From NCBI GenBank assembly GCA_030649945.1, contig JAUSFE010000050.1, positions 1,859-65,858 of the forward strand: DNA of 64,000 nucleotides, given 5' to 3'. This document shows, one piece after another, positions 27,359 through 64,000 of this stretch. The translations under genes and the position numbers were made by a program. A model generated the notes under the pieces. That model was not told the origin of the DNA, ran no database searches, and worked only from the letters and a program-made list of their open reading frames with translations. The DNA is from Dehalococcoidia bacterium. GTDB lineage: Bacteria; Chloroflexota; Dehalococcoidia; SM23-28-2; RBG-16-64-32. How positions within the stretch are numbered: the first letter of the stretch is position 1; each line of letters opens with the position of its first letter.

Positions 27359-27583
27359 ATGGCTACTAACAAAGCCCGGTTGACCATCGACCTTGAGCCG
27401 CAGCTCCATTCCAGGCTAAAGGTTGTGGCGGCGAAGAAGCGTACAAGCATGCGGGAGTACACAGTCGAGGCGATCGAGCGCCGGCTTGCGGAGGAGCCCG
27501 CCGAGTATCTCACGGCCGAGGCTGAGCCCGTCCTTGCGGAGCTATGGGACAACGATGATGACGCCGTCTACGACGATCTTTAG
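27359..27583 (+). CDS. ribbon-helix-helix (CopG/ParD-like) antitoxin
   Basis: MATNKARLTIDLEPQLHSRLKVVAAKKRTSMREYTVEAIERRL is the RHH pattern. Immediately precedes and overlaps the MazF-like gene. Confidence 0.6.
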   Translation: MATNKARLTIDLEPQLHSRLKVVAAKKRTSMREYTVEAIERRLAEEPAEYLTAEAEPVLAELWDNDDDAVYDDL

Positions 27584-27926
27584 CCGCGGCGATATCGTCC
27601 TCGTCCCATTCCAGTTCACCGATAAGCCCATTGCCAAGGTTCGCCCGGCCGCCGTCGTTAGCTCAACGTCATATCACTCGGCACGGCAAGAGGTGATCAT
27701 TGCGGCGATCACCAGCCGCGTCCGCGATCCGCTGCTCTTCGGCGACCACCTCATTCTCGGCTGGCGGACCGCCGGCCTGCCGAAACCGTCCGTTGTCACC
27801 GCTATCTTGCGCACGGTGAAGCAGGGGATGATCGCGCGCCGGGTGGGCAGGCTGGCGGAAGACGACCTCGCGCACGTGGACGGGCACCTCGCCGTGGCGC
27901 TGGCGCTGACGGCCGCCGCGCGATAA
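27555..27926 (+). CDS. PemK/MazF-family toxin (type II TA endoribonuclease)
   Basis: RGDIVLVPFQFTDKPIAKVRPAAVVSSTSYHSARQEVIIAAITSR is the MazF/PemK signature. The ORF-track start at 27423 is an out-of-context extension. Confidence 0.75.
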   Translation: MMTPSTTIFSRGDIVLVPFQFTDKPIAKVRPAAVVSSTSYHSARQEVIIAAITSRVRDPLLFGDHLILGWRTAGLPKPSVVTAILRTVKQGMIARRVGRLAEDDLAHVDGHLAVALALTAAAR

Positions 27927-36662: not shown

Positions 36663-36875
36663 CGGCGCGCGGCAGGGAACTGGGAGTCAGGAGCTGGGAA
36701 CTAGGAGCCGCCCCGCCCGCGCACGCCGTCACGCGCAGAACGCCGTAGGGGCGCACGGCGTTCGCCCCTACGTTTGCGTTGGGCCGTCGCCTGCCGCGTA
36801 AGGCCGGGCGGTTGACAGCGAGTGGGCCGGCGGTATGCTTGTAACGCGTCCCGCTTCGGCGCATGGAGGGCCACC

Positions 36876-38243: not shown

Positions 38244-38245
38244 CC

Positions 38246-39592
38246 ATGGAACAACAGATCCGCTTCTGCACAACCTCCGACGGGGTGCGCATCGCCTACG
38301 CCACTGCAGGCCAGGGCCCGCCGCTGGTGCTGATCACCGCTTGGGTGGGTCACCTTCAGTTCGAATGGAGCCACGCCGAGACCAAGGCGTTCTACGAAGG
38401 CTTGGCGAACGGGCGGCTACTCGTTCGCTTTGACAAGCGTGGCACCGGCCTAAGCGACAGGCAGGCAGAAGACTTCTCCGTAGAGGCGCGCCTGCGCGAT
38501 CTGGAGGCGGTGGTCGATGCCCTGCGCCTGAAACGCTTTGCCCTCATGGGCTTTTCCGAGAGCGGGCCCACGGCCATAATCTACGCAGCCCGCCATCCTG
38601 AGCGGGTGACGAACCTCGTCATCTATGGCTCCTACCACCGCTGGCCGTACCCTGCAGGGGCCGCCAATCCCGTCATGGCCCTGATCCGCTCGCAGTGGGG
38701 CATGGGATCAGCGGCGCTCTCTGCCATCTTCGTTCCCTCCGGCGATCCCGCCCAGGTAGCGTGGTGGACGGAGTTGCAGCGGGTCTCGGCCTCGCCAGAG
38801 AGTGCTGCCTCTATCTTCGAAGTGAACACCGGGCTTGATGTGACCTCCGTTCTCAGTGACATCCGGGCCCCGGCCCTCGTCATTCACCGGAACAACGATA
38901 CTGTCTGCCCCTTCGATGTCGCTCGCGAGATGGCTGCCCTCATCCCGGCTGCCCGTTTCGAGCCCCTGGAAGGCGATATCCATCCCCCCATGTTCGGCGA
39001 CACTGCCGCCGTCCTCAACGCCGTAGATTCCCTGCTGCCCAGCGGCGCGCGCCGCAGGCAGGCCGTCACCGCGGGCACGCCCTCCGGCCTCGTCACCATT
39101 CTCTACACCGACATGGAGGGCTCTACCCCCCTGACCCAGCGACTGGGCGACGCCAAAGCGCAGGAGGTGCTGCGCGCGCACAACACCATCGTCCGCGAGG
39201 CCCTCAAGGCGCACGGCGGGTCCGAGATCAAGCACACCGGCGACGGCGTCATGGCCTCCTTCCCAACGGCCTCCGGCGCGCTGGAGTGCGCCATCGCCGT
39301 GCAGCAGGGCTTCGCCGCGCACAACGAGTCGGCTGAGACGCCCGTCCGCGTGCGCATCGGCCTGAACGCGGGCGAGCCGGTGGCGGAGGAAGAGGACCTG
39401 TTCGGCACGGCCGTGCAGCTGGCGGCGCGCGTCTGCGCCAGGGCGGAGCCGGGGCAGGTCCTGGCCTCGAACGTGGTGCGTGAGCTGGCCGCCGGCAAGG
39501 GGTTCCTGTTCTCCGACCAGGGCGACGTGGTCCTGCGCGGCTTCGAGGATCCCGTGCGGCTGTACGAGGTGCGCTGGCAAGCGGCGGGCTGA
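38246..39592 (+). CDS. alpha/beta-hydrolase + class III cyclase fusion, copy B
   Basis: Starts 2 nt after the copy A stop. Hydrolase elbow GFSESG. The CHD region is about 95% identical to copy A (LYTDMEGSTPLTQRLGDAKAQEVLRAHNTIVREALKAHGGSEIKHTGDGVMASF...). Confidence 0.8.
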   Translation: MEQQIRFCTTSDGVRIAYATAGQGPPLVLITAWVGHLQFEWSHAETKAFYEGLANGRLLVRFDKRGTGLSDRQAEDFSVEARLRDLEAVVDALRLKRFALMGFSESGPTAIIYAARHPERVTNLVIYGSYHRWPYPAGAANPVMALIRSQWGMGSAALSAIFVPSGDPAQVAWWTELQRVSASPESAASIFEVNTGLDVTSVLSDIRAPALVIHRNNDTVCPFDVAREMAALIPAARFEPLEGDIHPPMFGDTAAVLNAVDSLLPSGARRRQAVTAGTPSGLVTILYTDMEGSTPLTQRLGDAKAQEVLRAHNTIVREALKAHGGSEIKHTGDGVMASFPTASGALECAIAVQQGFAAHNESAETPVRVRIGLNAGEPVAEEEDLFGTAVQLAARVCARAEPGQVLASNVVRELAAGKGFLFSDQGDVVLRGFEDPVRLYEVRWQAAG

Positions 39593-41028
39593 TGGACGCG
39601 CCGCCCATCCAGTACGCGAAGACCGCCGACGGCGTCAGCATCGCCTTCTGGACGCTCGGCGAAGGCCCCCCGCTCGTGATCCTGCCCAACCTGACCGCCA
39701 GTCACGTGCAGGTGGAGTGGGAGTGGGACGTCCGCCGGATCGCCTACCAGCGGCTGGCGCAGCACGCCACGGTCATCCGCTACGATTGTCGCGGCCTGGG
39801 GCTGTCTCAGCGCGATTGCCCCGACTTCTCCGCCGAGGCAGGGGGCCTCGACCTGGAGGCCGTCGTTGACCGCCTCGGCCTGGAGCGCTTCGCCATCTAC
39901 GGCTCCGACTCCACGGGCGACGTAACTTTCGCCTTCCCCGCCGGCCATCCGGAGCGGGTGAGTCACTTGATCATCGGCGTGCCGCATATCCAGCGCGGCT
40001 TCCGCCGCCGCCTGGCCGCCGTTCAGCCGCTCATTGATCAGGACTGGGAGCTGTTCATCGAAATCTTTCCGCGGCTCGCGGGGGGTTGGGACAGCCCCCA
40101 GGCGGCCCAGGTGCCGGCTGTGATGATGGGTACGCACACGCCCTCTAGCTTCCGCTCGGCTCTCGACGCGATGGCCGCCTTCTCGCCGGAGCCCTACCTG
40201 GCGGCTATTCAGGCGCCGTCGTTGATCATGCACCCGCTGCAGAGCGGCCGGGACAACCGGACAGCGCGAGTGCTGGCGGGCGCTATCGCCGGCGCTCACA
40301 TGGTAGGAATCCCGGGCTGGCCGCTCGCCTCAACACTCAACGAGACGGCCGTTGCGGCCATCCTGGACTTCATCAATACCGCGCCGGCCGCGCCGGGCCA
40401 CGCGATCCCCGCGCCGCAGATAGACATCAGCGCCGTCCGCACCATCGTCTTCACCGATGTCGAAGGCTCCACGGCGCTCAATGAGCGGCTCGGCGACGAG
40501 GGCGCCCGGGAGGTCCTGCGCGAGCACGAGCGACTGACGCGCGAGGCGCTCGCGTCGCACGGCGGCTCCGAGGTGAAGGCGATGGGCGACGGCTTCATGG
40601 CCTGGTTCCCATCGGCGACGCGCGCTGTGGAGTGCGCCATCGCCTTACAGCAAGCGTTTGACGAACGTAATCGGAAGGTAGGGGCGCAGCAACATGAGCC
40701 AAGTAGGAAGGATATCGAATCGTCTTCCGATGTTGCTGCGCCCCTACGCACCGCCTCCCGGCCACGCCTCGACACGCCCGAACCGATCCGCGTCCGTATC
40801 GGCATCAACGCCGGGGAGCCAATTGCCGAAGGAGACGACCTCTTCGGCGCATCGGTGATCACGAGCGCCCGCATCACCGCGCAGGCGAAGGGCGGCCAGA
40901 TCCTGGCTTCGGACGTGGTGCGCCAGCTCCTCGCCGGCAAGGGGTTCCTCTTCTCCGACCAGGGCGACGTCGTCCTGCGCGGCTTCGAGGACCCCGTGCG
41001 CCTGTACGAGGTGCGCTGGCGCCAGTAG
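39592..41028 (+). CDS. alpha/beta-hydrolase + class III cyclase fusion, copy C (carries an in-frame REP-element insertion in the CHD)
   Basis: ATG overlaps the copy B stop (TGATG). CHD motifs FTDVEGST, EVKAMGDGFMAWF, GINAGEP. The hydrolase GxSxG motif is degenerate (YGSDSTG). Extra 30 aa (KVGAQQHEPSRKDIESSSDVAAPLRTASRPRLDTPEP) relative to A/B/D. Confidence 0.8.
   Translation: MDAPPIQYAKTADGVSIAFWTLGEGPPLVILPNLTASHVQVEWEWDVRRIAYQRLAQHATVIRYDCRGLGLSQRDCPDFSAEAGGLDLEAVVDRLGLERFAIYGSDSTGDVTFAFPAGHPERVSHLIIGVPHIQRGFRRRLAAVQPLIDQDWELFIEIFPRLAGGWDSPQAAQVPAVMMGTHTPSSFRSALDAMAAFSPEPYLAAIQAPSLIMHPLQSGRDNRTARVLAGAIAGAHMVGIPGWPLASTLNETAVAAILDFINTAPAAPGHAIPAPQIDISAVRTIVFTDVEGSTALNERLGDEGAREVLREHERLTREALASHGGSEVKAMGDGFMAWFPSATRAVECAIALQQAFDERNRKVGAQQHEPSRKDIESSSDVAAPLRTASRPRLDTPEPIRVRIGINAGEPIAEGDDLFGASVITSARITAQAKGGQILASDVVRQLLAGKGFLFSDQGDVVLRGFEDPVRLYEVRWRQ
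40683..40752. mobile_element. REP-like palindromic element (GTAGGGGCGCAGCA...TGCTGCGCCCCTAC, long loop) inserted in-frame inside cyclase copy C
   Basis: Same palindrome arms as the intergenic REP copies at 19843, 22568, 43255 etc. Replaces the short ESAETP linker present in copies A and B. Confidence 0.7.
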
Positions 41029-41131
41029 GGGCGAACCGCCGTTCGCCCCTACGTTTGCCTTGCGTCTTCGCCTGCCTCCACCGCACCCGGCCGGTAGCCG
41101 CGCGGCATTTGACACGGTTGCGACCAGGAGT

Positions 41132-42535
41132 ATGATTCACGGTGCGGAGTGGCGTGAAAACGAAGTGAACCCATCGATCCAGTACGTGCACACGGCTGAT
41201 GGGGTCGCCATCGCCTACTGGGCCCTGAACGAGGGGCTGCCGCTGGTCTATGCGCCCATTATCCCCTTCAGCCACATTCAGCTGGAGTGGCAGATCCCGC
41301 AGTGCCGCCGCTGGTACGAGCAGCTGGCCGGCCACCGGCAGTTGATCCGCTATGACGCACGCGGCTGCGGCCTCTCGGAGCGCGACGTCTCGGACTTCTC
41401 GCTGGACGGGCTCGTCCTGGACCTGGAAGCGGTGGCAGACGGCTTGCACCTGGACAACTTCGCGCTGTTCGCCTCGTCTGACGCCTCGATGATGGCGATC
41501 GCTTACGCGGCGCGGCACCCGGATCGCGTGTCGCACCTGATCCTCTGGAGCGCGTGGGCGCGGCGAGAGGACGTCTCGCGGTCCGCGCAGGCGCGCTCGC
41601 TGCGCGCCGTCCTGGAGCAGGACTGGACCATCTACACGGAGACCGTGGCGCGCGTGCTGATGGGCTGGGCTGCGGAAGGGCCGGCGCGCGAGTTCGCGGC
41701 CTTTTACCGGGCGTGCACCAGCGCGGACGCCGTTCGCGCGCTGGCGGCGTCCGCCTACGAGACCGACGTGTCGGCTCTACTCCCCCAGATCAGGTGCCCG
41801 ACCCTGGTGGTGCACCGCAGCCACATCCCCGGCGTGGGCCTGCCCGTTGTGCGCGACCTGGCGGCCCGCATCCCCAACGCCCGCCTGGCGCTCCTGGAGG
41901 GGTTGTCTCCGCTGCCCTTCTTGGAAGACACGCAAGCGGTTGTACGGGCCATTCAGGTGTTCTTGGGGGAAGAGCCGGAAGACGATGCGGCCGCGCCGGA
42001 TGTCGCGGGCCGGGCGATCGCCAGCGCACCCGTCACGATCCTCTTCACGGACATGCAGAGCTCCACCGCCATGACGCAGCGCCTGGGGGACGCGCGGGCC
42101 CAGGACGTGCTGCACGTGCACAACAGCATCGTGCGGGCCGCGCTGAAGCGGCTGGACGGGTCGGAGGTCAAGCACACGGGGGACGGCATCATGGCCTCGT
42201 TCGCTTCGGCGACGAGAGGGCTGGAGTGCGCCGTCGCCATCCAGCGGGCGCTGGCCACCCACAACGCCTCTGCGCCGGACGGCGCGATCCACGTGCGTAT
42301 CGGCCTGAACGCCGGCGAGCCCGTGGCGGAGGAGTCGGACCTCTTCGGAACGGCAGTCCAGATCGCCGCGCGCGTCTGCGAGCATGCGGAGCCGGACCAG
42401 ATCCTGGTGTCGAACGTCGTGCGCGAGCTGGCGTCCGGGAAGGGGTTCCTGTTCTCGGACCGCGGCGACAGTGTGTTGCGCGGCTTCGAGGACCCGGTGC
42501 GGCTGTTCGAGGTGAGGTGGTCGCCCGGCGACTAA
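41132..42535 (+). CDS. alpha/beta-hydrolase + class III cyclase fusion, copy D (most divergent)
   Basis: Start approximate (internal ATG giving MIHGAEWRENEV...; the ORF-track TTG at 41060 lies within a REP hairpin). CHD motifs FTDMQSST, EVKHTGDGIMASF, GLNAGEP. Hydrolase nucleophile motif lost (FASSDAS). Confidence 0.75.
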   Translation: MIHGAEWRENEVNPSIQYVHTADGVAIAYWALNEGLPLVYAPIIPFSHIQLEWQIPQCRRWYEQLAGHRQLIRYDARGCGLSERDVSDFSLDGLVLDLEAVADGLHLDNFALFASSDASMMAIAYAARHPDRVSHLILWSAWARREDVSRSAQARSLRAVLEQDWTIYTETVARVLMGWAAEGPAREFAAFYRACTSADAVRALAASAYETDVSALLPQIRCPTLVVHRSHIPGVGLPVVRDLAARIPNARLALLEGLSPLPFLEDTQAVVRAIQVFLGEEPEDDAAAPDVAGRAIASAPVTILFTDMQSSTAMTQRLGDARAQDVLHVHNSIVRAALKRLDGSEVKHTGDGIMASFASATRGLECAVAIQRALATHNASAPDGAIHVRIGLNAGEPVAEESDLFGTAVQIAARVCEHAEPDQILVSNVVRELASGKGFLFSDRGDSVLRGFEDPVRLFEVRWSPGD

Positions 42536-51767: not shown

Positions 51768-53636
51768 TTAGGGCGCGGCCACGCTGTCGGGGGCGGGGAA
51801 GTCCGGGTCCGCGAAGAGCGTGAAGGCGCTGTCTGCGTAGACCTCCCGGAAGCCGAGGACGGTGCGGATGTAGCCGTCCAGCCGCTTCAGCTCCTCGCCG
51901 CCCACCAGCCAGCCGTGCGGCGTCACGTAGTGCAGGGCCACGTACTTGATGCGGTACTTGAGGAACGTCTCCTGCACAAGCGCGGCGTTCAGGTCGTCGG
52001 CGTCCGGGCGGGCGGGGCAGAGGGCCGGGCAAGCCAGGTACTTGATCCCCGGCGGCGTGTCCACCCAGAAGAGCGTCTCGTTGGGCGCGCGGGAGATGTA
52101 TCCGCCCAGGGAGGGCTTCTGGTAGATGCGCTGATAGTAGTCGGCCATGATGGCGCCCGCCTGCGTGCCGCCCAGCGTCCAGGTAGAGCGGCCGAGGGGA
52201 GCGTCCAGGACGGCGAAATCACCCGCTTCGCGGCTGATGGCGACGAGCGCCGCCGGCGTTTCCAGCCTGGCGGTCACCTGGGGTGGGTTCCAGTACTCCA
52301 CGGCGACAAACGCGAAAAGGAGGACAGCCGCCAGGGGCACGAGCTTCAGGTAGTGTCCTCGCAGCCACGAGAGGATGGCGGCGGCGCCCATGGCCGCCAG
52401 TATGCTGAGGGCCAGGTACCCGAAGACAATCAGGCGGGCGATGCCCCGGCGCTCCTTGATCAGCGGTATCTTCTCGTATAGCTGGTAGGGCATGGGGACG
52501 GTGAAGTGGAGGCCCAGGAGTGAGAAATCCTTGTTGTCGCCCAGGTAGAGGTGCGGGCCCATGGCCAGGGAGACGAAGAACAGGAGGACGGCGGCCCAGA
52601 ACACCTGGACGTGCGAGAGGCGACGCACCTGGGCCAGCGCCACCGCGGCCAGGAGGAGCGGCGTAATCCCCAGGTAGACGGTGTTCTCGATGTCGCCGGT
52701 GGGGAAGTGCTGCAAGGAGCCGAGGTCCCACGTGGGCACCTTCCCGGGGCCCCAGAGGGGGCTGGGCGTGAAGAGGGCGCCCAGGTCGCTGGACATGGAC
52801 TCCGAGGCCACGGGCATGCTCACCTCATTGCGGCGGATGCTGATGAGGGCGGGCACGAGGAGCGGCCCGCCGACCACGAAGAGCGCCGCGACGGCGATGG
52901 GCACCACGCGCCAGAGCGGGAGCAGGCGCGGCCACTCGCGGGCCCTGGCGTAGACGAGCGACCAGTAGAGGAGGAAGAGACCCAGGAACATCCCGGCGTC
53001 CACGGCGTATTCCAGGTTGGTGTAGGCGATGATGGCCCAGGCGGCGCCGGCGGCGGCGGCGTCCCACCAGCGGCCGCGCTCCTGGAAGCGGAAGAGGAAG
53101 AGGGCGAACACCGGCAGCGGCCACACGGTGGCGATGTTCCAGTGGCCGTGGAAGCGCATGACGACGAAGGGGGCGAAGGCGAAGATGAAGCCCGCGATGA
53201 GCGAGGCGGCATCGTTCTTCGTGAAGCGGTACGCCAGGGCGTAGGTGGCCACCCCGGAAGCGGCGAAGAGCAGCAGGCCCAGGATGTTCCAGGAAAGGAT
53301 GATGTTGCCGGTGAGCAGTTGCAGGGGGATGGAGAGGACGGCGTCCACCGTGTTCAGCGTGTGCAGGTAGAGATCGGCGCCCTGGGGGTAGAAGAGCAGG
53401 TCCGTGTGGAAGGGGTTGGAGAAGCTGAAGAGGGCGTGCTTCACCCACCAGAGGTTCCAGAGGTTCATCCAGGAGTCCTCCGGGCGCACGGGCCAGTAGC
53501 TCAGGCTGTTTCCGGCGTGCAGGACCAGTGGCCACGTCTGAATGACGGCCCAGAGCAGGAAGAAGGCGGCGACCAGGACCCAGCGCAGAAGCTGAGCGGG
53601 CGGCGCCGGCAGCCGTTGCGGCAGACGCGCGATCAT
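51768..53636 (-). CDS. large polytopic membrane protein, GT-C-type glycosyltransferase-like (YfhO/ArnT-like)
   Basis: 622 aa, at least 12 predicted TM helices in the N-terminal two thirds plus a C-terminal soluble domain; exact family not assignable. Confidence 0.6.
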   Translation of the reverse strand: MIARLPQRLPAPPAQLLRWVLVAAFFLLWAVIQTWPLVLHAGNSLSYWPVRPEDSWMNLWNLWWVKHALFSFSNPFHTDLLFYPQGADLYLHTLNTVDAVLSIPLQLLTGNIILSWNILGLLLFAASGVATYALAYRFTKNDAASLIAGFIFAFAPFVVMRFHGHWNIATVWPLPVFALFLFRFQERGRWWDAAAAGAAWAIIAYTNLEYAVDAGMFLGLFLLYWSLVYARAREWPRLLPLWRVVPIAVAALFVVGGPLLVPALISIRRNEVSMPVASESMSSDLGALFTPSPLWGPGKVPTWDLGSLQHFPTGDIENTVYLGITPLLLAAVALAQVRRLSHVQVFWAAVLLFFVSLAMGPHLYLGDNKDFSLLGLHFTVPMPYQLYEKIPLIKERRGIARLIVFGYLALSILAAMGAAAILSWLRGHYLKLVPLAAVLLFAFVAVEYWNPPQVTARLETPAALVAISREAGDFAVLDAPLGRSTWTLGGTQAGAIMADYYQRIYQKPSLGGYISRAPNETLFWVDTPPGIKYLACPALCPARPDADDLNAALVQETFLKYRIKYVALHYVTPHGWLVGGEELKRLDGYIRTVLGFREVYADSAFTLFADPDFPAPDSVAAP

Positions 53637-53804
53637 TCGTCAGTTGGCCTGGTGCTCAGATTCCGGGCGGGCGCCATGGGTTCTCCCGATAATACACTCC
53701 GGGTCCGGCGAAGCGCCACGGCGTGTGCGCAGGGCCCGGTCGCCCTTGTCAGGGTACGCACGCTGACGTAAGTTAGACGTGTCCCCAGATATAAGGAGCG
53801 GTAG

Positions 53805-54236
53805 ATGCCGAAGGAAGTTACGTTCGAAAAGGCACTGGAACGGGCCAGGCGCATGTCCGAGCGCTACGTGGAGAAGGGCGCCTACGAGTTCTTCCCGCTG
53901 CCCGATATCGTGGATGAGGTCCAGCGCGGCCTGGCCAAGAACCTGGTGACGCACGGGCACCTGTATTGCCCCTGAATGACGCTCTCCGGCGATCCTGATG
54001 AGGATCGCAAGAAGATCTGCCCGTGTGAGCGGCACCACGAAGACATTGCGCGGGACGGGTTCTGCATCTGAATGTTCTTCGTGAGCGAAGAGTATCTTCG
54101 CCGGTACCAGGAGACGGGGGACGTGGGCGCCAGCACGCTGGGCGAGGTGACCCCGCTGGGGGAATCGCTCTTCCCGGCGGAGAAGGACGCGGAGCACCTG
54201 CCGAAGTCCCAGCGCGGGCCCAGAGCCCGGGCGTAG
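53805..54236 (+). CDS. candidate selenoprotein: ferredoxin-thioredoxin reductase catalytic-subunit (FtrC)-like protein with two in-frame UGA (Sec) codons at 53973-53975 and 54069-54071
   Basis: RBS AAGGAG 6 nt upstream of the ATG. Read-through translation: MPKEVTFEKALERARRMSERYVEKGAYEFFPLPDIVDEVQRGLAKNLVTHGHLYCP-U-MTLSGDPDEDRKKICPCERHHEDIARDGFCI-U-MFFVSEEY...RA. This reproduces the FtrC CPC...CPC...CHC-MLF motif with U at the two redox-active Cys positions. Hairpins GCGATCCT-GAUG-AGGATCGC (13 nt after UGA1) and CGAAGA-GUA-UCUUCG (15 nt after UGA2). Absent from the ORF track because the UGAs split it into pieces of less than 60 aa. Confidence 0.5.
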
Positions 54237-54710
54237 AGACGCCCCGGCGGGGCGTCTCAGGCGCTCGTAGTGGGTACGCCGCGCTGTCTGCCCTGCGCCC
54301 CGACCACCTGGCTTCACCTCCCCACCGCCCCAGATTCCTTCGCGAAGCTACGTGTCAGCCGCGCTCAGGCGCCATCTCGCTCAGAATGACAGGGTGCGTT
54401 CGCACGGCGCTCATTACCCGCGCAGCAGCGGTGGTAGAGACGCCCCGCCGGGGCGTCTCAGGCGCTCGTCGTGGGTACGGCGCGCCGTCTGCCCTGCGCC
54501 ACGGCCGCCTGGCTTCACCTCCCCACCGCCCCAGATTCCCCTTCGGCTGCGCTCAGGGCAGGCTTCGCGAAGATGCGCCTTCGCTCCGAAGGATGTCGAT
54601 ACCGCTCAGAATGACAGATCGTGCGTCGCGGCGCCGCCGCCGGGTGCGGTGAGGCCGGCGCTCAGAACGACGAAGGCCGCCGGGAGGGCGGCCTTCGCCC
54701 GGTTGTCAGC
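54237..54710. repeat. about 200-bp tandem duplication (units starting near 54233 and 54432) carrying the perfect hairpin GAGACGCCCCGGCGGGGCGTCTC and R4 motifs. The second unit has a nested R5 insertion (CTTCGGCTGCGCTCAGGGCAGG). Ends with the terminator hairpin AAGGCCGCC-GGGAG-GGCGGCCTT
   Basis: Direct repeats seen in the sequence, between the convergent FtrC-like and desulforedoxin genes. Confidence 0.7.
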
Positions 54711-55115: not shown

Positions 55116-55622
55116 CTACTGGACGGCGATCCGTCCGCCCATAGAGCCGGGGTGGAAGTCGCAGCGGAAGGTGTAGGCGCCGGCGACAAGGGGAGCGAAC
55201 GTCAGCTCTCCCGCGGCGCCACCGCCGATGGTGTCGGGTTCGGTCACCGCGTCGTCCTCTGTCTCGTACCGGCCGTCCGGCCCGGCGAGGCGCAGGTTGT
55301 GCGGCTGGGCGTCGTTGTTTGTGACACGGATCGTCACGGCGGCGCCGGCCGGGACGCGGAGGTTGTTGGGGGCGAACTGGGCGTCCCGGGCGGCCACTGC
55401 CAGCGCGCCGTCCTGGGGCTCGGTGACCGCGGGGGCCAGCGGTTGCACGGGCTCCGGCTGGGGCTGCAACTCGGGGAGCGAGGGCGCGCCGGGCGGGCTG
55501 CCGGTGGGCGCCGTCTCCTCGCCGCCGCCGCAGGCGCCCAGCAGGAGCAGCGCCAAGCCCGAGAGCGTCGTGGCGCAGAGGAAGGAGCGGCGGAGCGGAC
55601 GTGACATCTGCATATTTGACAT
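55116..55622 (-). CDS. type-1 (blue) copper cupredoxin lipoprotein
   Basis: Signal + lipobox LLLGAC. Cupredoxin ligands H...C-x2-H-x2-M (FRCDFHPGSMGG) and upstream H (QPHNLRL). Confidence 0.75.
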   Translation of the reverse strand: MSNMQMSRPLRRSFLCATTLSGLALLLLGACGGGEETAPTGSPPGAPSLPELQPQPEPVQPLAPAVTEPQDGALAVAARDAQFAPNNLRVPAGAAVTIRVTNNDAQPHNLRLAGPDGRYETEDDAVTEPDTIGGGAAGELTFAPLVAGAYTFRCDFHPGSMGGRIAVQ

Positions 55623-55641
55623 GGCGTGGACCCGCCGGGCG

Positions 55642-56784
55642 CTACTTCGCGGTGATGTCACCCTTCATATCAAGCGGGTGGAAGTCGCAGCGGTAGCTGC
55701 CGGCGCCCGCCGGAAGGGTAGTAGTAAGCGTGGCACTGGAACCGGGAGGCACCAAGTCCGGGCTGGAAACAGTGTCATCGTCCGTATCGAACTTGTTGTC
55801 GGGCCCGGCGATGCGCAGGTTATGGGGGGCGTTGCCACCGTTCTTGAGGTTGAAGGTAACGGCCTGGCCGGCCGTCACTTCCAGCGGCGGGTTCTGCTGG
55901 GCCCCGAACTTGAAGAAGTTGTCGCCCATGGTCACGTCCGCCGTGCCGCTGACCTGGACCGGCGGCCCGGGCGTGGCCGCGGGGGCGGCGGCCTTCTGGC
56001 CGCAGGGCGGGGTGCCGATCTCGCCGTTGATCGTCGTGCCGGGCAGCACCGGACCTTTGAAGACCTCCGAGCCCAGCTTATGCGCCGAGGCCGCGGTCCC
56101 CATGGCGCCGCGCTCGACTTCGATCTTGCCGCTACCCTCGCTAACGCTCTTGATGACGACCAGTTCATAGACGCCGTCGACGGGATCGTCGTCGAGCCGC
56201 AGGACGTCTTCCGCCTTGATGCCGTCCACTGAGTCCAGCGCGAGCGTCGTGCCGCCTTTACCGATGTCCGCCTCGAGGCGCTTTGGGGGGGCGAATTCGT
56301 CGTGGTGGGCGGCGCGCTCTACGGCGTGCGCCCAGCCCAGCTCTGACGCCAGCGGGTCATGCGCGCCGTCCAGCATGCGGCCCGTGATGAGGGCGACGAG
56401 CTGCTCGATCTGAAAGTCGTTGAGCGGGCCGTTCTGCGCCTGAGACCACGCCGGCATGACGGTGCCCACGCGGCCGCAGACGATCGTGTCGCGCATGCGG
56501 TTCTGCAGGGCCAGAATCTGGCCGGCGCTGCCCTCGCGGTTGGCGGACAGGTTGAGCGGGACGCCGGGAAGGCCGCCGCGCTCGAGCGGGCCCTGGCCGG
56601 TGAGGCCGTGGCAGGAGCGGCAGTTAAGGGCGAAAAGGGCGCCCCCGCGCTCCGCGTTGACGCGCAGCTGGCGCTCGGTAGCTTCGTCCGCGCGCGCGGA
56701 GTCCCAGAGGAAGTAGAGCAGGGTGCCGACGAGGAACACCATGAGCAGGCCGACCATCACGTTGACCTGCTTGCTGGTGTTCAT
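55642..56784 (-). CDS. membrane-anchored mono-heme cytochrome c fused to a C-terminal cupredoxin domain
   Basis: N-terminal TM. CxxCH (CRSCHG). C-terminal cupredoxin ligands YRCDFHPLDMKG. Confidence 0.75.
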   Translation of the reverse strand: MNTSKQVNVMVGLLMVFLVGTLLYFLWDSARADEATERQLRVNAERGGALFALNCRSCHGLTGQGPLERGGLPGVPLNLSANREGSAGQILALQNRMRDTIVCGRVGTVMPAWSQAQNGPLNDFQIEQLVALITGRMLDGAHDPLASELGWAHAVERAAHHDEFAPPKRLEADIGKGGTTLALDSVDGIKAEDVLRLDDDPVDGVYELVVIKSVSEGSGKIEVERGAMGTAASAHKLGSEVFKGPVLPGTTINGEIGTPPCGQKAAAPAATPGPPVQVSGTADVTMGDNFFKFGAQQNPPLEVTAGQAVTFNLKNGGNAPHNLRIAGPDNKFDTDDDTVSSPDLVPPGSSATLTTTLPAGAGSYRCDFHPLDMKGDITAK

Positions 56785-56805
56785 TCGCTCGTGGTCCCGT
56801 CCTTG

Positions 56806-57480
56806 CTATGCCTTCGGAGGTGTTTCGCTGCCCGGCTCGTGGGCCGCGGCGCGCGACGGGTTGCCCGGCCCGCCGCTGAACTCGTGCTGGCGGCCGGTCT
56901 GGACGACGATGCTCTTGTCATCCTGCACCTGTAAGGGGAATACATCCAGGGACCTGGGCGCGGGCCCGAAGACCAGCACGCCACCCTCCCTGGTGTAGGT
57001 GGAGTTGTGGCAGGGGCAGCGGAACCAACCCTTGCGCCCCTGGAACTCGAAGCCCGGATTCCAGGGCACGGTGCAGCCGAGATGGGGGCATTTCCGCCAG
57101 AGGGCGAGCAGGCCGCCGGGGGTCTCCTCGCCGTTGGGCGTCGTGCCGGGCTTGAGGTTCAGGAGGAAGAAGCGGCCCTCCGGGATGACGACAGGGTCGC
57201 CCTCCGGCGCCGGGATTCTGTCCGGCGTGACGGGGATGGGGCCGCCGAAACCGGCGAGCTTGCGCGGCCACATGAAGTCCAGGGACGGCCCCGCAAGCCC
57301 TACGATGGCGAGCATGAGGCCGCTCCAGAACCCGCCCAGGATGAAGACGCGCCGCGTGACCAGGCCGCGCCTGGGAACGGGCTTCGCGACCGGGGTATCG
57401 ACAACCAGCGAGCCGCCGGCGATCGCGGGGGCGGCGGGTTCCCGCGGCATGGCGCCTGCGCTCTGGCTTTCAGCTTCCAA
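56806..57480 (-). CDS. Rieske [2Fe-2S] iron-sulfur subunit of a cytochrome bc-type complex
   Basis: Rieske boxes CPHLGC and CPCHNS with N-terminal TM anchor. Confidence 0.85.
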   Translation of the reverse strand: MEAESQSAGAMPREPAAPAIAGGSLVVDTPVAKPVPRRGLVTRRVFILGGFWSGLMLAIVGLAGPSLDFMWPRKLAGFGGPIPVTPDRIPAPEGDPVVIPEGRFFLLNLKPGTTPNGEETPGGLLALWRKCPHLGCTVPWNPGFEFQGRKGWFRCPCHNSTYTREGGVLVFGPAPRSLDVFPLQVQDDKSIVVQTGRQHEFSGGPGNPSRAAAHEPGSETPPKA

Positions 57481-57503
57481 TAGTAGTCACCTCTTGCAGG
57501 CCG

Positions 57504-58487
57504 TCAGCCCTCGTCCACCTTGATGTCCCAGGGCGGGATCAGCGCCTGCGCCTGCCCGCGGAAGAAGCTGCCGATCATGGACAGGGTGAGATAGGAGGCC
57601 ATGACGGCGGTGAACATGATGAGGAACACGTCGCGCCTGGTCCTCACCCAGCCCAGGCGGAAGAGCACGTAGATGATGAGCACCGCCAGGAAGGCGATGG
57701 TCGAGAGCGGGATCACCTGGTCCGACATGATGACGGGAATGTTCAGGTGCATGTCGCACCATAAATGAAAGCTGCCGATGTTCCCGCAGACGTTGTTAAG
57801 GGGTACCGGGATGTGATCCAGGTCGCCAGGCCAGTCCAGGTTCTTGTCGTGGATGCCCCAGATGTTCGGGAAGGGGACGCTGAACTGCAGGCGCTTGGAG
57901 ACATCCTTGACGGAGATGATGCCCTCGTGCTTGGTCGGGTCAGCGTCGCGCAGGCAGGGCGACCCCTGGTGCGCCGCCTGGGTATCGCAGGAGGGGATCC
58001 AGCGGGTCAGGCTCTCGGTGTGCGTGCGGTCGCCGGCGTCGAAGATGACCAGCCCGGCGCTGACGACGACGGCGTAGACGGCAGCGATAACCGTGAGGCG
58101 CACGGCGTACTTCGTGCCGAACCAGACGCCCTGGGCCTGGCGGCTGCGGTCCAGATAGGGGATGACGGCGAAGAACGCGAGGGCGACGGTGGGCAGGAGG
58201 ACGCCGGCCCAGGACTTATCCATGTGCAGGAGCAGCTCCTGGAGGTTCAAGAAGTACCAGGGCGCCTTGGAAGGGTTGGGAGTGACGTCCTGGTTGGCGT
58301 GATTGAGCAGCGGGGCGTTGATGAAGACGGAGAGGAGGAGGAAGGTGATGGTGAAGAGGACGGCGGCGACGAACTCTATGAAAACGAGGTCAGGCCAGAC
58401 CAGGACCTCTTCCTCACGCTCCCGCTTCGGCCGGGGCCGCGCCGGCTCCGCCGGCCGGGCGGCTGGTCTCTGCGCCTCTACAGCCAT
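57504..58487 (-). CDS. cytochrome b C-terminal-domain protein (subunit IV-like) of a split cytochrome b
   Basis: PNPSKAPWYFLNLQELLLH corresponds to the PEWY region; multiple TM helices. Confidence 0.8.
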   Translation of the reverse strand: MAVEAQRPAARPAEPARPRPKREREEEVLVWPDLVFIEFVAAVLFTITFLLLSVFINAPLLNHANQDVTPNPSKAPWYFLNLQELLLHMDKSWAGVLLPTVALAFFAVIPYLDRSRQAQGVWFGTKYAVRLTVIAAVYAVVVSAGLVIFDAGDRTHTESLTRWIPSCDTQAAHQGSPCLRDADPTKHEGIISVKDVSKRLQFSVPFPNIWGIHDKNLDWPGDLDHIPVPLNNVCGNIGSFHLWCDMHLNIPVIMSDQVIPLSTIAFLAVLIIYVLFRLGWVRTRRDVFLIMFTAVMASYLTLSMIGSFFRGQAQALIPPWDIKVDEG

Positions 58488-58502
58488 GGCGGGTGCGGCC
58501 TG

Positions 58503-59282
58503 TTACAGCGGCCTCGCCATGCCGCCGTCGCGCCGGATGCGCCAGAAGTGCACGGCCATGAAGATGGCCGCCAGGAGCGGCAGCGCGATCACGTGCAGCG
58601 TGTAGAAGCGGAGCAGGGTGCTGGGGCCGATCTCAAAGCCGCCGAAGACGATGAGCTGCGTCTCGTCGCCGAAGTAGGGAGCGGAGCCGGCGATGCCGAG
58701 GCCGATCGTGGCCGCCCACAGTGCCAGCTGGTCCCAGGGCAGCAGGTAGCCGGTGAAGCTGAGCACCAGCGTCAGCACGAGCAGGATGACGCCGACCACC
58801 CAGTTGAACTCCCGCGGCGGCTTGTAGGCGCCGGTGTAGAACACGCGCATCATGTGCAGGAAGACCAGGATGACCATGGCATGGGCCGTCCAGCGGTGCA
58901 TGTTGCGCATGAGCAGCCCGAATTTGACGTTCGTCTCCAGCTCGGCGATGTCCTGGTACGCCCTCTCCACAGAGGGTACGTAGTAGAACATGAGGAGGAC
59001 GCCCGTGACGGTGAGGATGAGGAACATGAAGAAGGTGAGGCCGCCCAGGCAGTAGGTGTGCGTGACCTTGACGTGGGTGCGGTGCAGGCGCGTGGGGTGG
59101 AGGTGGAGGAAGACGTTGGTGGCCACCACCAGCATCTGGTTGCGCGGGGTGTTGGGATAGCCGGAGCGGAAGATGGACTGCCAAACATAGTTGTGGAAGA
59201 TCTTATCGTAGATGCGGTCCTGGAGGACGCCGATGCGCTCCGACCAGTTGCGTGGTTTTCCCGGATCTTCCGTCACCGCCAT
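58503..59282 (-). CDS. cytochrome b6-like (cytochrome b N-terminal domain) subunit
   Basis: Four-helix heme-binding core with conserved His pairs (MRNMHRWTAHAMV...FLHMMRVF; VIALPLLAAIFMAVHFWRIR). Confidence 0.85.
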   Translation of the reverse strand: MAVTEDPGKPRNWSERIGVLQDRIYDKIFHNYVWQSIFRSGYPNTPRNQMLVVATNVFLHLHPTRLHRTHVKVTHTYCLGGLTFFMFLILTVTGVLLMFYYVPSVERAYQDIAELETNVKFGLLMRNMHRWTAHAMVILVFLHMMRVFYTGAYKPPREFNWVVGVILLVLTLVLSFTGYLLPWDQLALWAATIGLGIAGSAPYFGDETQLIVFGGFEIGPSTLLRFYTLHVIALPLLAAIFMAVHFWRIRRDGGMARPL

Positions 59283-59294
59283 CTGCCGGCCTCC

Positions 59295-62406: not shown

Positions 62407-62722
62407 GCGGCGATGCCAGGAGCAAGAGTGGTTCGAACGGGCGAAGCTGGCCGGTACCGCGGTCAACTTCAAGAAGGAGGCCCATCAGCGTCGATAGGCC
62501 AAGGACCGCTCCATTCGCGTCCTCGGAGACCGAGAAGGAGGCGATGCTCGAGTGCCCTTCGCGGCGGAATGTGGCGTAAGAATCAGAAAGCCCCAGTTCT
62601 TCCACGAGTGCGCGCGGCAGGATGGCGATGGGGTGGTTCACATCAACCGTCGCATCGATGGTTGTGCAGCGTCCGGGCGATCGAGGGTTGCTGATCGTCA
62701 CCTGCAGTGTCACGTGTCCCAT
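62387..62722 (-). CDS. hypothetical protein (111 aa)
   Basis: ORF track; no recognisable motif; stop overlaps the heptanucleotide repeat. Confidence 0.35.
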   Translation of the reverse strand: MGHVTLQVTISNPRSPGRCTTIDATVDVNHPIAILPRALVEELGLSDSYATFRREGHSSIASFSVSEDANGAVLGLSTLMGLLLEVDRGTGQLRPFEPLLLLASPLLTPVT

Positions 62723-63834
62723 TCTACTCCGTTGCCCTTCACCACCTCGCCGATCTTGCGCGCCTCTGGCAACTGCGACTGCACGCCGGCCGCGTCCGCC
62801 GGCGCCACGGCCAGGACGATGCCCACGCCCATGTTGAACGTGCGGAACATCTCCTCTTCGTCGATGCCCCCGTGCTCCTGGATCAACCTGAACAGCGCCG
62901 GCACACGCCAGGCTGAGCGGTCGATGTGCACGCCGAGGCCGGCGGGCAGGATGCGCGGGACGTTGCCGGGGATGCCGCCGCCGGTAATGTGGGCGATGCC
63001 TCTGATTGGAGGTTGGAGGTTGGAGGTTAGAGGTTGGAGGTTAGACCCTTCGGCTGCGCTCAGGGCAGGGGTTGGAGGTTGGAGCAGCGGGCGCAGGTCT
63101 GGCAGGTAGCAGCGGTGGGGCGCCAGGAGGGCGTCGCCGAGGCTGCCCTCCAGGCCCGGGAAGTTCGAGTTGAGGACGGCGCGCTCGGCCCCGGCGTCGC
63201 GGTCCAGGCCCACGCCGAAGACCTTGCGCACGAGCGAGTAGCCGTTGGTGTGCAGGCCCCTGGAGGGCAGCGCCAGGAGGACATCGCCCGCGCGGATGCG
63301 GGAACCGTCAATCACCGCGTCGCGCTCGACGACGCCGACGATGAAGCCAGCCAGGTCGAAGTCACCCTCGGCGTAGGTGCCGGGCATGTCCGCCGTCTCG
63401 CCGCCCAGGAGCGCGCAGCCGGCCTCGCGGCAGGCCTCCACGCAGCCGCGCACGAGGTCGGCCTTGGCGTCGTCGCTGAGGCCGCAGTTGCCGATGTAGT
63501 CCAGGAAGAAGAGGGGCTCCGCGCCGGCCGTCAGGATGTCGTTGACGCAGTGGTTGACGAGGTCGTGGCCGACGGTGTCGTAGCGGCCGAGCAGCGAGGC
63601 GAGCTTGACCTTGGTGCCCACGCTGTCCGTGCTGGCCACGAGGACCGGCTCGCGGTAGGCGCCGAGGCGGAAGAGGCCGGCGAAGGGGCCGACGTCCGCC
63701 AGCACCTCCGGCCGGCGCGCGCTCTTCGCCAGCTCCGCGATGCGCGAAACCAGCCGCTCGGCAGCGTCGATGTCCACGCCGGCGGCGGCGTAGGAAGGGC
63801 GCGGAGTCTCGGTCACGCGCGTATTATCCCGCAA
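62710..63834 (-). CDS. purM: phosphoribosylformylglycinamidine cyclo-ligase (AIR synthetase) PurM
   Basis: AIRS N- and C-domains (VASTDSVGTKVKLA, GHDLVNHCVNDIL, GYSLVRKV, IAHITGGG); contains an in-frame repeat insertion at about 63000-63070. Confidence 0.85.
   Translation of the reverse strand: MRDNTRVTETPRPSYAAAGVDIDAAERLVSRIAELAKSARRPEVLADVGPFAGLFRLGAYREPVLVASTDSVGTKVKLASLLGRYDTVGHDLVNHCVNDILTAGAEPLFFLDYIGNCGLSDDAKADLVRGCVEACREAGCALLGGETADMPGTYAEGDFDLAGFIVGVVERDAVIDGSRIRAGDVLLALPSRGLHTNGYSLVRKVFGVGLDRDAGAERAVLNSNFPGLEGSLGDALLAPHRCYLPDLRPLLQPPTPALSAAEGSNLQPLTSNLQPPIRGIAHITGGGIPGNVPRILPAGLGVHIDRSAWRVPALFRLIQEHGGIDEEEMFRTFNMGVGIVLAVAPADAAGVQSQLPEARKIGEVVKGNGVEWDT
63000..63070. mobile_element. 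family R6 + R5 repeat (GGTTGGAGGTTAGAGGTTGGAGGTTAGACC CTTCGGCTGCGCTCAGGGCAGG GGTTGGAGGTTGGAG) inserted in-frame within purM
   Basis: Encodes RPLLQPPTPALSAAEGSNLQPLTSNLQPP between the conserved LAPHRCYLPDL and IAHITGGG; same motifs occur intergenically at 44950 and 54540. Confidence 0.6.
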
Positions 63835-63872
63835 ACGGCGCGCGCTGCGACAGGGCCCGCCGGCGAAGGCCG

Positions 63873-64000
63873 TTATCTGTGTCCGTTACCCGTCGGTGCG
63901 ATGTTCTGGTTCATGCGGAAGAAGTTTGTCGGGTCGTACTTGTTCTTCAGGTCCACCATCGTCTGGTAGTGACTCCCGAAGCTTTCGCGTACGCGCTGGT
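63873..64000 (-). CDS. partial CDS (C-terminal end; gene continues beyond the window): FAD-linked oxidase, BBE-like C-terminal domain
   Basis: Manual translation: ...QRVRESFGSHYQTMVDLKNKYDPTNFFRMNQNIAPTGNGHR*, which is the berberine-bridge-enzyme C-terminal signature. Confidence 0.5.
   Translation of the reverse strand, partial: QRVRESFGSHYQTMVDLKNKYDPTNFFRMNQNIAPTGNGHR

What the first reader, a model, noticed from the sequence alone, without database searches (positions are those of the whole stretch)
53805..54236. Unannotated FtrC-like gene with two in-frame UGA codons at the two redox-active cysteine positions: candidate double-selenocysteine (diselenide) oxidoreductase
Reading through both TGAs gives one 143-codon ORF behind a good RBS. 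Its conserved cysteine pattern is CP[U]...CPC...C-I-[U]-MFF.

This mirrors the CPC...CPC...CHC-MLF architecture of ferredoxin-thioredoxin reductase catalytic subunits. There, the second residue of the first and third pairs (Cys57/Cys87 in Synechocystis numbering) forms the redox-active disulfide and the other four Cys ligate the 4Fe-4S cluster.

Here exactly those two positions are TGA (U57, U89), while the four cluster-ligand Cys are retained.

Each TGA is followed 13-15 nt downstream by a short perfect hairpin with a G/U-containing loop (GCGAUCCU-GAUG-AGGAUCGC; CGAAGA-GUA-UCUUCG), the position expected for bacterial SECIS elements.

Sec substituting both partners of a catalytic disulfide would be an unusual natural diselenide. 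I am not aware of FtrC-like proteins among described selenoprotein families.
Basis: partly seen in the sequence, partly recalled or inferred. Interest (0 to 1): 0.85.

Follow-up and report, generated by a model that had tools for sequence, protein, structure and literature searches.

The report
Known double-selenocysteine FTR-like reductase gene
This is a real gene for a small iron-sulfur reductase whose two catalytic cysteines are both replaced by selenocysteine, but the family was described in 2008 and NCBI already has a curated model for it.

Summary
Window 53805-54236 (+) is one 143-codon frame behind an AAGGAG ribosome-binding site, with in-frame TGA at codons 57 and 89.

With U read as C, the protein matches Pfam FeThRed_B (E=8e-20). 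It also matches the NCBIfam equivalog NF041072, "FtrB family double-selenoprotein", at 219 bits against a cut-off of 160.

All 80 related genome loci fetched, all Chloroflexota/Dehalococcoidia including SAR202, carry TGA at both positions. The protein stays conserved after each TGA. The nearest all-cysteine homologues have Cys in both columns.

Each TGA is followed 13 nt later by a hairpin conserved at the nucleotide level. Synonymous variation collapses inside both stems, and this genome's rare codons (GAT, GAA, CTT) are used there. TGA is an ordinary stop in 11 of 32 confident window genes, so a changed genetic code is excluded.

Zhang and Gladyshev (2008) reported exactly this double-Sec FTR homologue, and later reviews list it.

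Not shown here: Sec-decoding genes (none in these 64 kb), actual selenium incorporation, the diselenide, and the substrate.

Small additions: natural Cys57/Sec89 variants, Ile in place of the catalytic His, and a conserved small upstream Cys protein in the more distant loci (including SAR202).

The parts
53793..53798 (+). Shine-Dalgarno sequence AAGGAG, 6 nt upstream of the ATG
   Evidence: Read directly from the sequence.
53805..54236 (+). Coding sequence of the FtrB-family double selenoprotein: 143 codons including two UGA = Sec, plus a TAG stop
   Evidence: Translation. NF041072 scores 219 bits against a cut-off of 160. PF02943 E=8e-20.
53967..53969 (+). Cys55 codon, predicted [4Fe-4S] ligand (first Cys of the CPU motif)
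   Evidence: Invariant in alignment A1. Aligned to the first Cys of the CPC motif in solved FTR-type chains.
53973..53975 (+). UGA-1 = Sec57, equivalent to the exposed redox-active Cys57 of Synechocystis FTR
   Evidence: TGA in 80/80 related loci plus the window. Cys in all-Cys homologues and TGC in two natural variants.
53989..54008 (+). SECIS-like hairpin 1 (stem 53989-53996 / 54001-54008, loop GAUG). It starts 13 nt after UGA-1, with an invariant G in the apical loop
   Evidence: Fold. 86% of cells paired, against 16-48% in slid controls. RNAalifold predicts it independently. Synonymous variation is suppressed at G62, D63, E66, D67 and R68. Rare GAT codons are used.
54018..54026 (+). Cys72-Pro73-Cys74, two predicted [4Fe-4S] ligands
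   Evidence: Invariant in A1. Aligned to the central CPC motif of FTR-type chains.
54063..54065 (+). Cys87 codon, fourth predicted [4Fe-4S] ligand
   Evidence: Invariant in A1 and A4.
54069..54071 (+). UGA-2 = Sec89, equivalent to the cluster-proximal redox-active Cys87 of Synechocystis FTR
   Evidence: TGA in 80/80 related loci and in L081 and L082. Cys in all-Cys homologues.
54085..54101 (+). SECIS-like hairpin 2 (stem 54085-54091 / 54095-54101, loop GUA). It starts 13 nt after UGA-2, and the G-U of the loop is invariant
   Evidence: 96% of cells paired, against 32-67% in slid controls. RNAalifold predicts it. S94 AGC 79/81, E95 GAA 71/80, E96 GAG 81/81, L98 CUU 79/80, R99 CGC 73/81. CTT is 3.4% of Leu codons in this genome. 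Two loci (L042, L053) have different stems at the same place.
54236..54258 (+). Perfect 23-nt palindrome GAGACGCCCCGGCGGGGCGTCTC abutting the stop codon. Possibly a transcript-end hairpin, but it has no T tract
   Evidence: The terminator scan did not call it.

Best explanation
The locus is an intact gene for a member of the FtrB-family double selenoproteins. This is a roughly 140-residue, single-domain homologue of the catalytic subunit of ferredoxin:thioredoxin reductase, found in Chloroflexota of the class Dehalococcoidia. Shown here: family membership; the coincidence of both UGA codons with the two redox-active Cys columns; retention of the four cluster-ligand Cys; strict conservation of both UGAs and of the downstream reading frame; and RNA-level selection on one hairpin after each UGA. 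Inferred: SelB with Sec-tRNA(Sec) recognises each hairpin as a bacterial SECIS and inserts selenocysteine at both UGAs. Cys55, Cys72, Cys74 and Cys87 then bind a [4Fe-4S] cluster, and Sec57 and Sec89 form a diselenide next to it. By analogy with FTR, the cluster would pass two single electrons from a ferredoxin-type donor. Sec89 would bond transiently to a cluster iron in the one-electron intermediate. Sec57 would be the exposed nucleophile attacking the disulfide of a thioredoxin-like or other target. The electron donor and the target are unknown, and neither is encoded nearby.
For: NF041072 'FtrB family double-selenoprotein' scores 219 bits against a cut-off of 160, E=1e-65. PF02943 E=8e-20. 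PDB relatives 4tpu_A (E=2e-12), 7pwe_A and 7bzk_A align their CPC/CPC/CxC motifs with CPU/CPC/CIU. TGA occurs at both sites in 80/80 genome loci, always 96 nt apart. Residues after each TGA are fully conserved, for example M58, F91, F92, S94, E96 and R99. In 17 of the 18 homologues aligned, all-Cys proteins at 32-48% identity, both columns are Cys. Two natural variants have TGC at 57 and TGA at 89, showing Sec/Cys interchange at that site. Both hairpins are conserved in place, with suppressed synonymous variation and rare codons. TGA terminates 11 of 32 confident genes in the window. Literature: the same double-Sec FTR homologue with predicted SECIS elements is in PMC2398784. It is listed in PMC9312934 and in PMC13188914, the latter giving NF041072 and 2 Sec. 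Dehalococcoidia MAGs are among the most selenoprotein-rich bacteria in BSepDB, PMC13326102.
Against: No selA, selB, selD or tRNA-Sec is present in the 64-kb window, and no tRNA-Sec in the 60 flanks scanned. So the Sec-decoding capacity of this particular genome is not shown. The source genome could not be identified. The hairpins show almost no compensatory covariation; they are conserved as sequence, so structure is supported by synonymous-site constraint rather than by covarying pairs. Hairpin 2 is not exceptional by energy (z=-0.4). No Rfam family matches. The catalytic His of the FTR CHC motif is Ile here, so the chemistry may differ from classical FTR. No variable-subunit, thioredoxin or ferredoxin gene is nearby. 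No protein-level or selenium-labelling evidence exists for any member, as far as the searched library shows.
Confidence: 0.88

Rival explanations
1. UGA is decoded here as a standard amino acid (Trp, Gly or Cys), through a reassigned genetic code or general stop-codon read-through, and no selenium is involved.
For: Several public gene calls translate the orthologues with W at both sites, i.e. were called with code 4/25. No Sec machinery is seen in the window.
Against: TGA ends 11 of 32 confident genes in the window whose profile matches run to the C-terminus. Both sites are catalytic Cys columns, where Trp or Gly would destroy the redox pair. A dedicated hairpin under RNA-level selection follows each UGA. 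The class is known to use Sec heavily.
Confidence: 0.04
2. The gene is a pseudogene, or an assembly or sequencing artefact, of an ordinary all-Cys FTR-like gene that acquired two nonsense mutations.
For: Two in-frame stops in a 143-codon frame is what a decaying gene could look like when seen in one genome only. Standard gene callers split it into fragments of 56, 31 and 54 aa.
Against: The same two TGAs, never TAA or TAG, occur in 80 of 80 independent species-level genomes, with no frameshift or other stop. The protein is strongly conserved across and after both sites.
Confidence: 0.02
3. Translation normally stops at the first UGA and the functional product is the 56-residue N-terminal peptide. 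The downstream conservation would belong to separately initiated ORFs, since an ATG immediately follows each TGA.
For: Each TGA is directly followed by ATG (TGA-ATG at both sites), so re-initiation is formally possible. The ORF listing reports ORFs 53976-54071 and 54072-54236 starting at these ATGs.
Against: The three pieces together form one continuous FeThRed_B domain. Its six metal/redox positions are spread over all pieces and could not assemble a cluster as separate peptides without a precedent. The Met after U is part of the conserved protein motif U-M (81/81 and 78/81). No ribosome-binding site precedes the internal ATGs.
Confidence: 0.03

Closest known systems
NCBIfam NF041072, 'FtrB family double-selenoprotein' (equivalog model FtrB_double_U)
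   Same: Full-length match (residues 3-124 on profile 1-121) at 219 bits against the curated cut-off of 160. Two UGA codons at the two redox-active positions. Closest relatives are all Chloroflexota/Dehalococcoidia.
   Different: Nothing of substance. This copy is at most 89% identical to the nearest species representative. It has a 20-residue basic tail beyond the profile.
FTR-catalytic-subunit selenoprotein from the Global Ocean Sampling metagenome (Zhang and Gladyshev 2008, PMC2398784)
   Same: [quoted passage not shown]
   Different: That report rested on two marine reads and warned of possible sequencing error. Here the gene sits in a 68% G+C genomic context, and 80 further genomes show the same arrangement.
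Classical ferredoxin:thioredoxin reductase catalytic subunit (cyanobacteria and chloroplasts; PDB 7bzk and related; Pfam PF02943)
   Same: Same domain, with the same CPC...CPC...CxC spacing of four cluster ligands and a redox-active pair beside the [4Fe-4S] cluster.
   Different: Both redox Cys are Sec. The His of the CHC motif is Ile (C-I-U). No variable-subunit gene was noticed nearby. There is a conserved C-terminal extension (about residues 100-124) that the nearest Cys homologues lack. Identity to Arabidopsis FTRc is low (E=8e-4).
FTR-like ferredoxin:disulfide reductase of Methanosarcina acetivorans (PDB 4tpu; the name and function are from my own knowledge of Kumar et al. 2015, and the PDB entry calls the chain 'Rubredoxin')
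   Same: The best solved relative (E=2e-12, residues 9-105). A single catalytic-type subunit without the plant variable chain, from a non-photosynthetic anaerobe.
   Different: 4tpu has Cys at both redox positions, CYC instead of CIU, and a fused rubredoxin domain that is absent here.
SelL, a eukaryotic selenoprotein with a UxxU diselenide redox motif (Shchedrina et al. 2007, PMC1955791, cited in PMC3316567)
   Same: A precedent for a natural pair of Sec residues forming a redox-active diselenide.
   Different: SelL has a thioredoxin-like fold with the two Sec three residues apart and no Fe-S cluster. Here the two Sec are 32 residues apart and would meet only in the fold, next to a [4Fe-4S] cluster.

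Membership tests
NCBIfam NF041072 FtrB family double-selenoprotein | Whole-protein score at or above the curated equivalog cut-off (160 bits) | tested here: met
   219 bits, E=1e-65, residues 3-124 on profile 1-121 of 121 (U replaced by C in the query).
NCBIfam NF041072 FtrB family double-selenoprotein | In-frame UGA at both positions of the redox-active pair | tested here: met
   TGA at codons 57 and 89. The same holds in 80/80 relatives.
Pfam PF02943 FeThRed_B (FTR catalytic chain) | Domain score above the gathering threshold (22 bits) | tested here: met
   71.3 bits, E=8e-20, residues 11-101 on profile 2-94 of 106.
Pfam PF02943 FeThRed_B (FTR catalytic chain) | Four Cys ligands of the [4Fe-4S] cluster in the CPC...CPC...CxC pattern | tested here: met
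   C55, C72, C74 and C87 are invariant and aligned to the corresponding Cys of 4tpu, 7pwe and 7bzk.
Classical heterodimeric FTR (ferredoxin to thioredoxin) | Catalytic His between the last two Cys (CHC) | tested here: not met
   The motif is C-I-U. Ile88 is invariant in the family. The nearest Cys homologues have D, E, H, K, Y or C there.
Classical heterodimeric FTR (ferredoxin to thioredoxin) | Partner variable subunit (FeThRed_A) and a thioredoxin substrate | tested here: inconclusive
   None of the ORFs scanned in the window hit such families. No WCGPC or ferredoxin motif lies in a real frame. Small ORFs were not all scanned, and partners need not be linked.
Bacterial selenoprotein (SelB/SECIS-dependent UGA recoding) | Stem-loop starting about 11-15 nt after the UGA, with a G in the apical loop (rule from my own knowledge of bacterial SECIS models) | tested here: met
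   Both stems start 13 nt after the UGA. G25 (element 1) and G24-U25 (element 2) in the loops are invariant across 81 sequences.
Bacterial selenoprotein (SelB/SECIS-dependent UGA recoding) | Cys-containing homologues aligned at the Sec position | tested here: met
   Cys fills both columns in 17 of the 18 homologues aligned (P0040-P0060, 32-48% identity); the exception, P0052, is an 89-residue sequence garbled at the first site and ending before the second. Natural Cys57/Sec89 variants exist in L081 and L082.
Bacterial selenoprotein (SelB/SECIS-dependent UGA recoding) | selA, selB, selC (tRNA-Sec) and selD present in the same genome | not testable with these tools
   None is in the 64-kb window. 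The source genome is not among the species representatives (best 89% identity), and an exact GroEL look-up found nothing. There is only class-level support from the literature.
Bacterial selenoprotein (SelB/SECIS-dependent UGA recoding) | Selenium actually incorporated in the protein | not testable with these tools
   This needs 75Se labelling or mass spectrometry.

The most novel reading that the evidence does not exclude
The most novel reading the evidence does not exclude concerns the enzyme, which nobody has yet characterised. It would carry a catalytic diselenide packed against a [4Fe-4S] cluster, passing through an Fe-Se bonded one-electron intermediate. Ile replaces the catalytic His. 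Its physiological partner would not be thioredoxin but a lineage-specific protein. One candidate is the conserved small CxC...C..H protein encoded immediately upstream in the more distant loci (including SAR202). This would be a very low-potential reductase chemistry without a studied precedent.
Probability: 0.25. Interest if true: 0.55.

Novelty: already known. Interest (0 to 1): 0.25.

Why it matters
For genome annotation, this is a textbook case of a selenoprotein gene that ordinary gene callers split into fragments or translate with the wrong code. A model that names it already exists, so nothing new is discovered by finding it here.

The family remains biochemically unexplored. A diselenide beside an Fe-S cluster, conserved in at least 80 Dehalococcoidia species including the abundant marine SAR202 group, would be an attractive target for enzymology. 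The comparative data assembled here could help design such work. They comprise the strictly conserved pair of SECIS hairpins, the natural Cys57/Sec89 variants, the Ile replacing the catalytic His, and a candidate partner gene.

Tried and rejected
- **Rfam:** the gathering search of the whole window and the permissive search of 53900-54200 found no SECIS or other relevant family. This is uninformative, because bacterial SECIS elements are short and diverse.
- **tRNA-Sec:** ARAGORN found no tRNA at all in the window and no tRNA-Sec in 60 related flanks.
- **Sec machinery in the window:** NCBIfam/Pfam scans covered about 50 ORFs. The only AIR-synthase-like protein, 62710-63885 (-), is PurM next to PurH, not SelD. 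A tblastn with an E. coli SelD sequence recalled from memory hit nothing in the window or the 80 loci.
- **Other selenoprotein genes in the window:** a screen for in-frame TGA flanked by high-GC3 coding signal gave only off-frame or adjacent-gene artefacts.
- **Covariation test of the hairpins:** essentially no compensatory pairs, and shuffles equal the observed values. I therefore rely on synonymous-site constraint and slid-register controls, and I do not claim covariation support.
- **Identifying the source genome:** the best genome hit is 89% identical, and an exact look-up of the window's GroEL is not on record.
- **Representative search with the read-through protein:** P0001 was used instead.
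- **Conserved operon:** synteny is only clade-specific. No thioredoxin or ferredoxin motif is nearby.
- **Literature search for the exact NCBIfam name:** no paper found.

Full report
**1. The observation.**
Window 53805-54236 on the + strand reads as one frame of 143 sense codons ending in TAG. It has TGA at 53973-53975 (codon 57) and 54069-54071 (codon 89). AAGGAG lies at 53793-53798, 6 nt before the ATG. A mechanical ORF list splits the gene into pieces of 56, 31 and 54 codons. Each starts 13 nt after its UGA.

**2. What the protein is.**
- With U written as C, it matches Pfam PF02943 (FTR catalytic beta chain) at E=8e-20.
- It also matches the NCBIfam equivalog NF041072, "FtrB family double-selenoprotein", at 219 bits against a curated cut-off of 160. 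The match covers the whole 121-position profile.
- Among solved structures the best relatives are 4tpu_A (E=2e-12), 7pwe_A and Arabidopsis FTRc 7bzk_A. In all three alignments the CPC / CPC / CxC motifs line up with CPU / CPC / CIU.
- By established knowledge of Synechocystis FTR (Dai et al. 2000 and 2007, the latter cited as reference 37 in PMC2398784), Cys55, 74, 76 and 85 bind the [4Fe-4S] cluster. Cys57 and Cys87 form the redox-active disulfide.
- So the two UGA codons sit exactly on the redox pair, and the four ligands are retained.

**3. Is it decoded or decayed?**
- A pattern scan of one genome per species found 207 relatives. The 80 returned are all Chloroflexota, mostly labelled Dehalococcoidia and including SAR202, at 57-89% identity.
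- Every one has TGA at both positions, always 96 nt apart, with no other stop or frameshift.
- Residues after each TGA are fully conserved: M58 81/81, and F91, F92, S94, E96 and R99 at or near 100%.
- In a search of 1.84 billion representative proteins, the closest full-length homologues are all-Cys proteins of 32-48% identity. Seventeen of the 18 aligned have Cys in both columns; the exception, P0052, is an 89-residue sequence garbled at the first site and ending before the second.
- Two metagenome contigs carry orthologues with TGC at codon 57 and TGA at codon 89, reading on normally. This shows Sec/Cys interchange at a catalytic site, which is typical of selenoproteins.
- TGA is an ordinary stop for 11 of 32 confident genes in the window. 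This excludes a code-4/25 organism, even though several public gene calls show W at these sites.
- A pseudogene, a sequencing error and a reassigned code are therefore all very unlikely.

**4. The RNA elements.**
- Ungapped alignments of 48 nt from each UGA were made for the 81 sequences. RNAalifold on them places one stem at columns 17-36 and one at columns 17-33.
- For the stems I specified, 86% and 96% of cells pair, against 16-48% and 32-67% when the 3' arm is slid by 1-3 columns.
- There is almost no compensatory covariation, because the stems are conserved as sequence. Covariation statistics therefore give no support, and I do not claim any.
- The informative signal is at synonymous sites. 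The same amino acids elsewhere in the gene show 1.6-2.3 bits of codon entropy. Inside the stems, usage is Gly62 GGC 75/80, Asp63 GAT 71/81, Glu66 GAG 70/70, Asp67 GAT 73/81 and Arg68 CGC 78/81. It is Ser94 AGC 79/81, Glu95 GAA 71/80, Glu96 GAG 81/81, Leu98 CTT 79/80 and Arg99 CGC 73/81.
- In this 68% G+C genome, GAT is 13% of Asp codons, GAA 13% of Glu and CTT 3.4% of Leu. Given the amino acids, the codon choices in the two stems have probability 0.007 and 0.0008.
- Two loci (L042, L053) have different amino acids and a different perfect stem at the place of hairpin 2.
- A G in each apical loop is invariant: G25 in element 1, and G24 with U25 in element 2.
- This is what a bacterial SECIS looks like, by my own knowledge of E. 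coli fdhF and the bSECISearch rules.
- No Rfam model matched, which is expected for such short elements.

**5. What could not be shown.**
- The window holds no tRNA gene. None of about 50 scanned ORFs is SelA, SelB or SelD. The one AIR-synthase-type protein is PurM.
- No other in-frame-TGA candidate was found.
- The source genome is not among the species representatives and could not be located. Its Sec machinery therefore remains untested.
- Class-level support comes from the literature: Dehalococcoidia MAGs with 46-49 predicted selenoproteins are among the richest bacteria in BSepDB (PMC13326102).
- Selenium incorporation, the diselenide, the cluster, the electron donor and the substrate are all inferred.

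**6. Mechanism proposed.**
- Shown: the fold family, the ligand set, the position of the two Sec, and two SECIS-like elements under selection.
- Inferred by analogy with FTR: a ferredoxin-type donor delivers single electrons through the [4Fe-4S] cluster.
- The Sec57-Sec89 diselenide would be cleaved. Sec89 would attach transiently to a cluster iron, and Sec57 would act as the exposed nucleophile on a target disulfide.
- Differences from classical FTR are the Ile replacing the catalytic His of the CHC motif (invariant in the family) and a conserved C-terminal extension absent from the nearest Cys homologues. No variable-subunit, thioredoxin or ferredoxin gene is linked either.

**7. Comparison with what is known.**
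- Zhang and Gladyshev (2008, PMC2398784) listed "ferredoxin-thioredoxin reductase" among seven new selenoprotein families from the GOS metagenome.
- The family reappears in reviews of 2022 (PMC9312934) and 2026 (PMC13188914), the latter giving NF041072 and 2 Sec.
- NCBI's annotation pipeline has an equivalog model for it.
- A natural diselenide redox motif also has a precedent in SelL (Shchedrina et al. 2007, seen as a reference).

**8. Context in the window.**
- The gene stands alone.
- Upstream and divergent is a 622-residue ORF with no family match (51768-53636, -), and beyond it a SufR-like regulator.
- Downstream, after about 880 nt of non-coding DNA with a duplicated 111-nt element, lies a minus-strand operon (55116-59294). 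It encodes a cupredoxin, a Rieske protein and two b-type cytochromes.
- That downstream operon is syntenic in only the 12-14 closest loci.
- In 36 more distant loci (including SAR202), a conserved protein of about 105 residues sits immediately upstream on the same strand. It has a CxCGTA...MxCxxH pattern and no Pfam match. It is absent from the window.

**9. Verdict.**
This is a genuine, intact member of an already described and curated double-selenocysteine family. Interest is low as a discovery. There is modest residual interest because the enzyme has never been characterised.

Noticed in passing
window 54228-54338 and 54429-54539: A 111-nt direct repeat (92% identical, 201 nt apart) that begins 8 nt before the ftrB stop codon. 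Each copy contains a perfect 23-nt palindrome (GAGACGCCCCGGCGGGGCGTCTC, or ...CGCCGG... in the second copy). It occurs nowhere else in the window. It could be a duplicated transcript-end hairpin or a small repeat element.
   Followed up: partly
L081:397-840 and L082:428-859 (ENA metagenome contigs): Orthologues with TGC (Cys) at codon 57 and TGA at codon 89, i.e. natural Cys/Sec (selenenylsulfide) variants of the double selenoprotein. L081 still carries hairpin 1 although it no longer follows a UGA.
   Followed up: yes
L056:9640-9999 (+), and the equivalent position in 36 loci (L027, L040-L080 subset): A conserved ORF of about 105 residues immediately upstream of ftrB on the same strand. It often abuts the ftrB start. 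It has conserved Cys (FSAxCxCGTA ... MxCxxHxxMRxG) and no Pfam match, making it a possible partner or substrate. It is absent from the window.
   Followed up: partly
window 36816-42535 (+): Four consecutive, partly overlapping paralogous genes. Each combines an alpha/beta-hydrolase domain with an adenylate/guanylate cyclase domain (LipJ-like).
   Followed up: no
window 55116-59294 (-): An operon of a cupredoxin, an unassigned 380-residue protein, a Rieske Fe-S protein and two b-type cytochromes. The cytochromes resemble ExtQ and ExtP of the selenite/tellurite reduction operon; ExtP scores 301.8 bits against a cut-off of 290. The operon is syntenic with ftrB in the 12-14 closest loci only.
   Followed up: partly
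window 51768-53636 (-): A 622-residue ORF with very high GC3 (0.93), divergent from ftrB. It has no Pfam or NCBIfam match at all.
   Followed up: no
public protein clusters P0001, P0014, P0015 and members: In public metagenome annotations this gene appears as fragments of 53, 56 or 57 residues named 'hypothetical protein'. It also appears as a 142-residue protein with Trp at both Sec sites. This is a systematic mis-annotation of the family.
   Followed up: yes
window 27420-27926 (+): A PemK/MazF-type toxin gene just upstream of a two-component response regulator and histidine kinase pair and the pst phosphate-transport operon.
   Followed up: no
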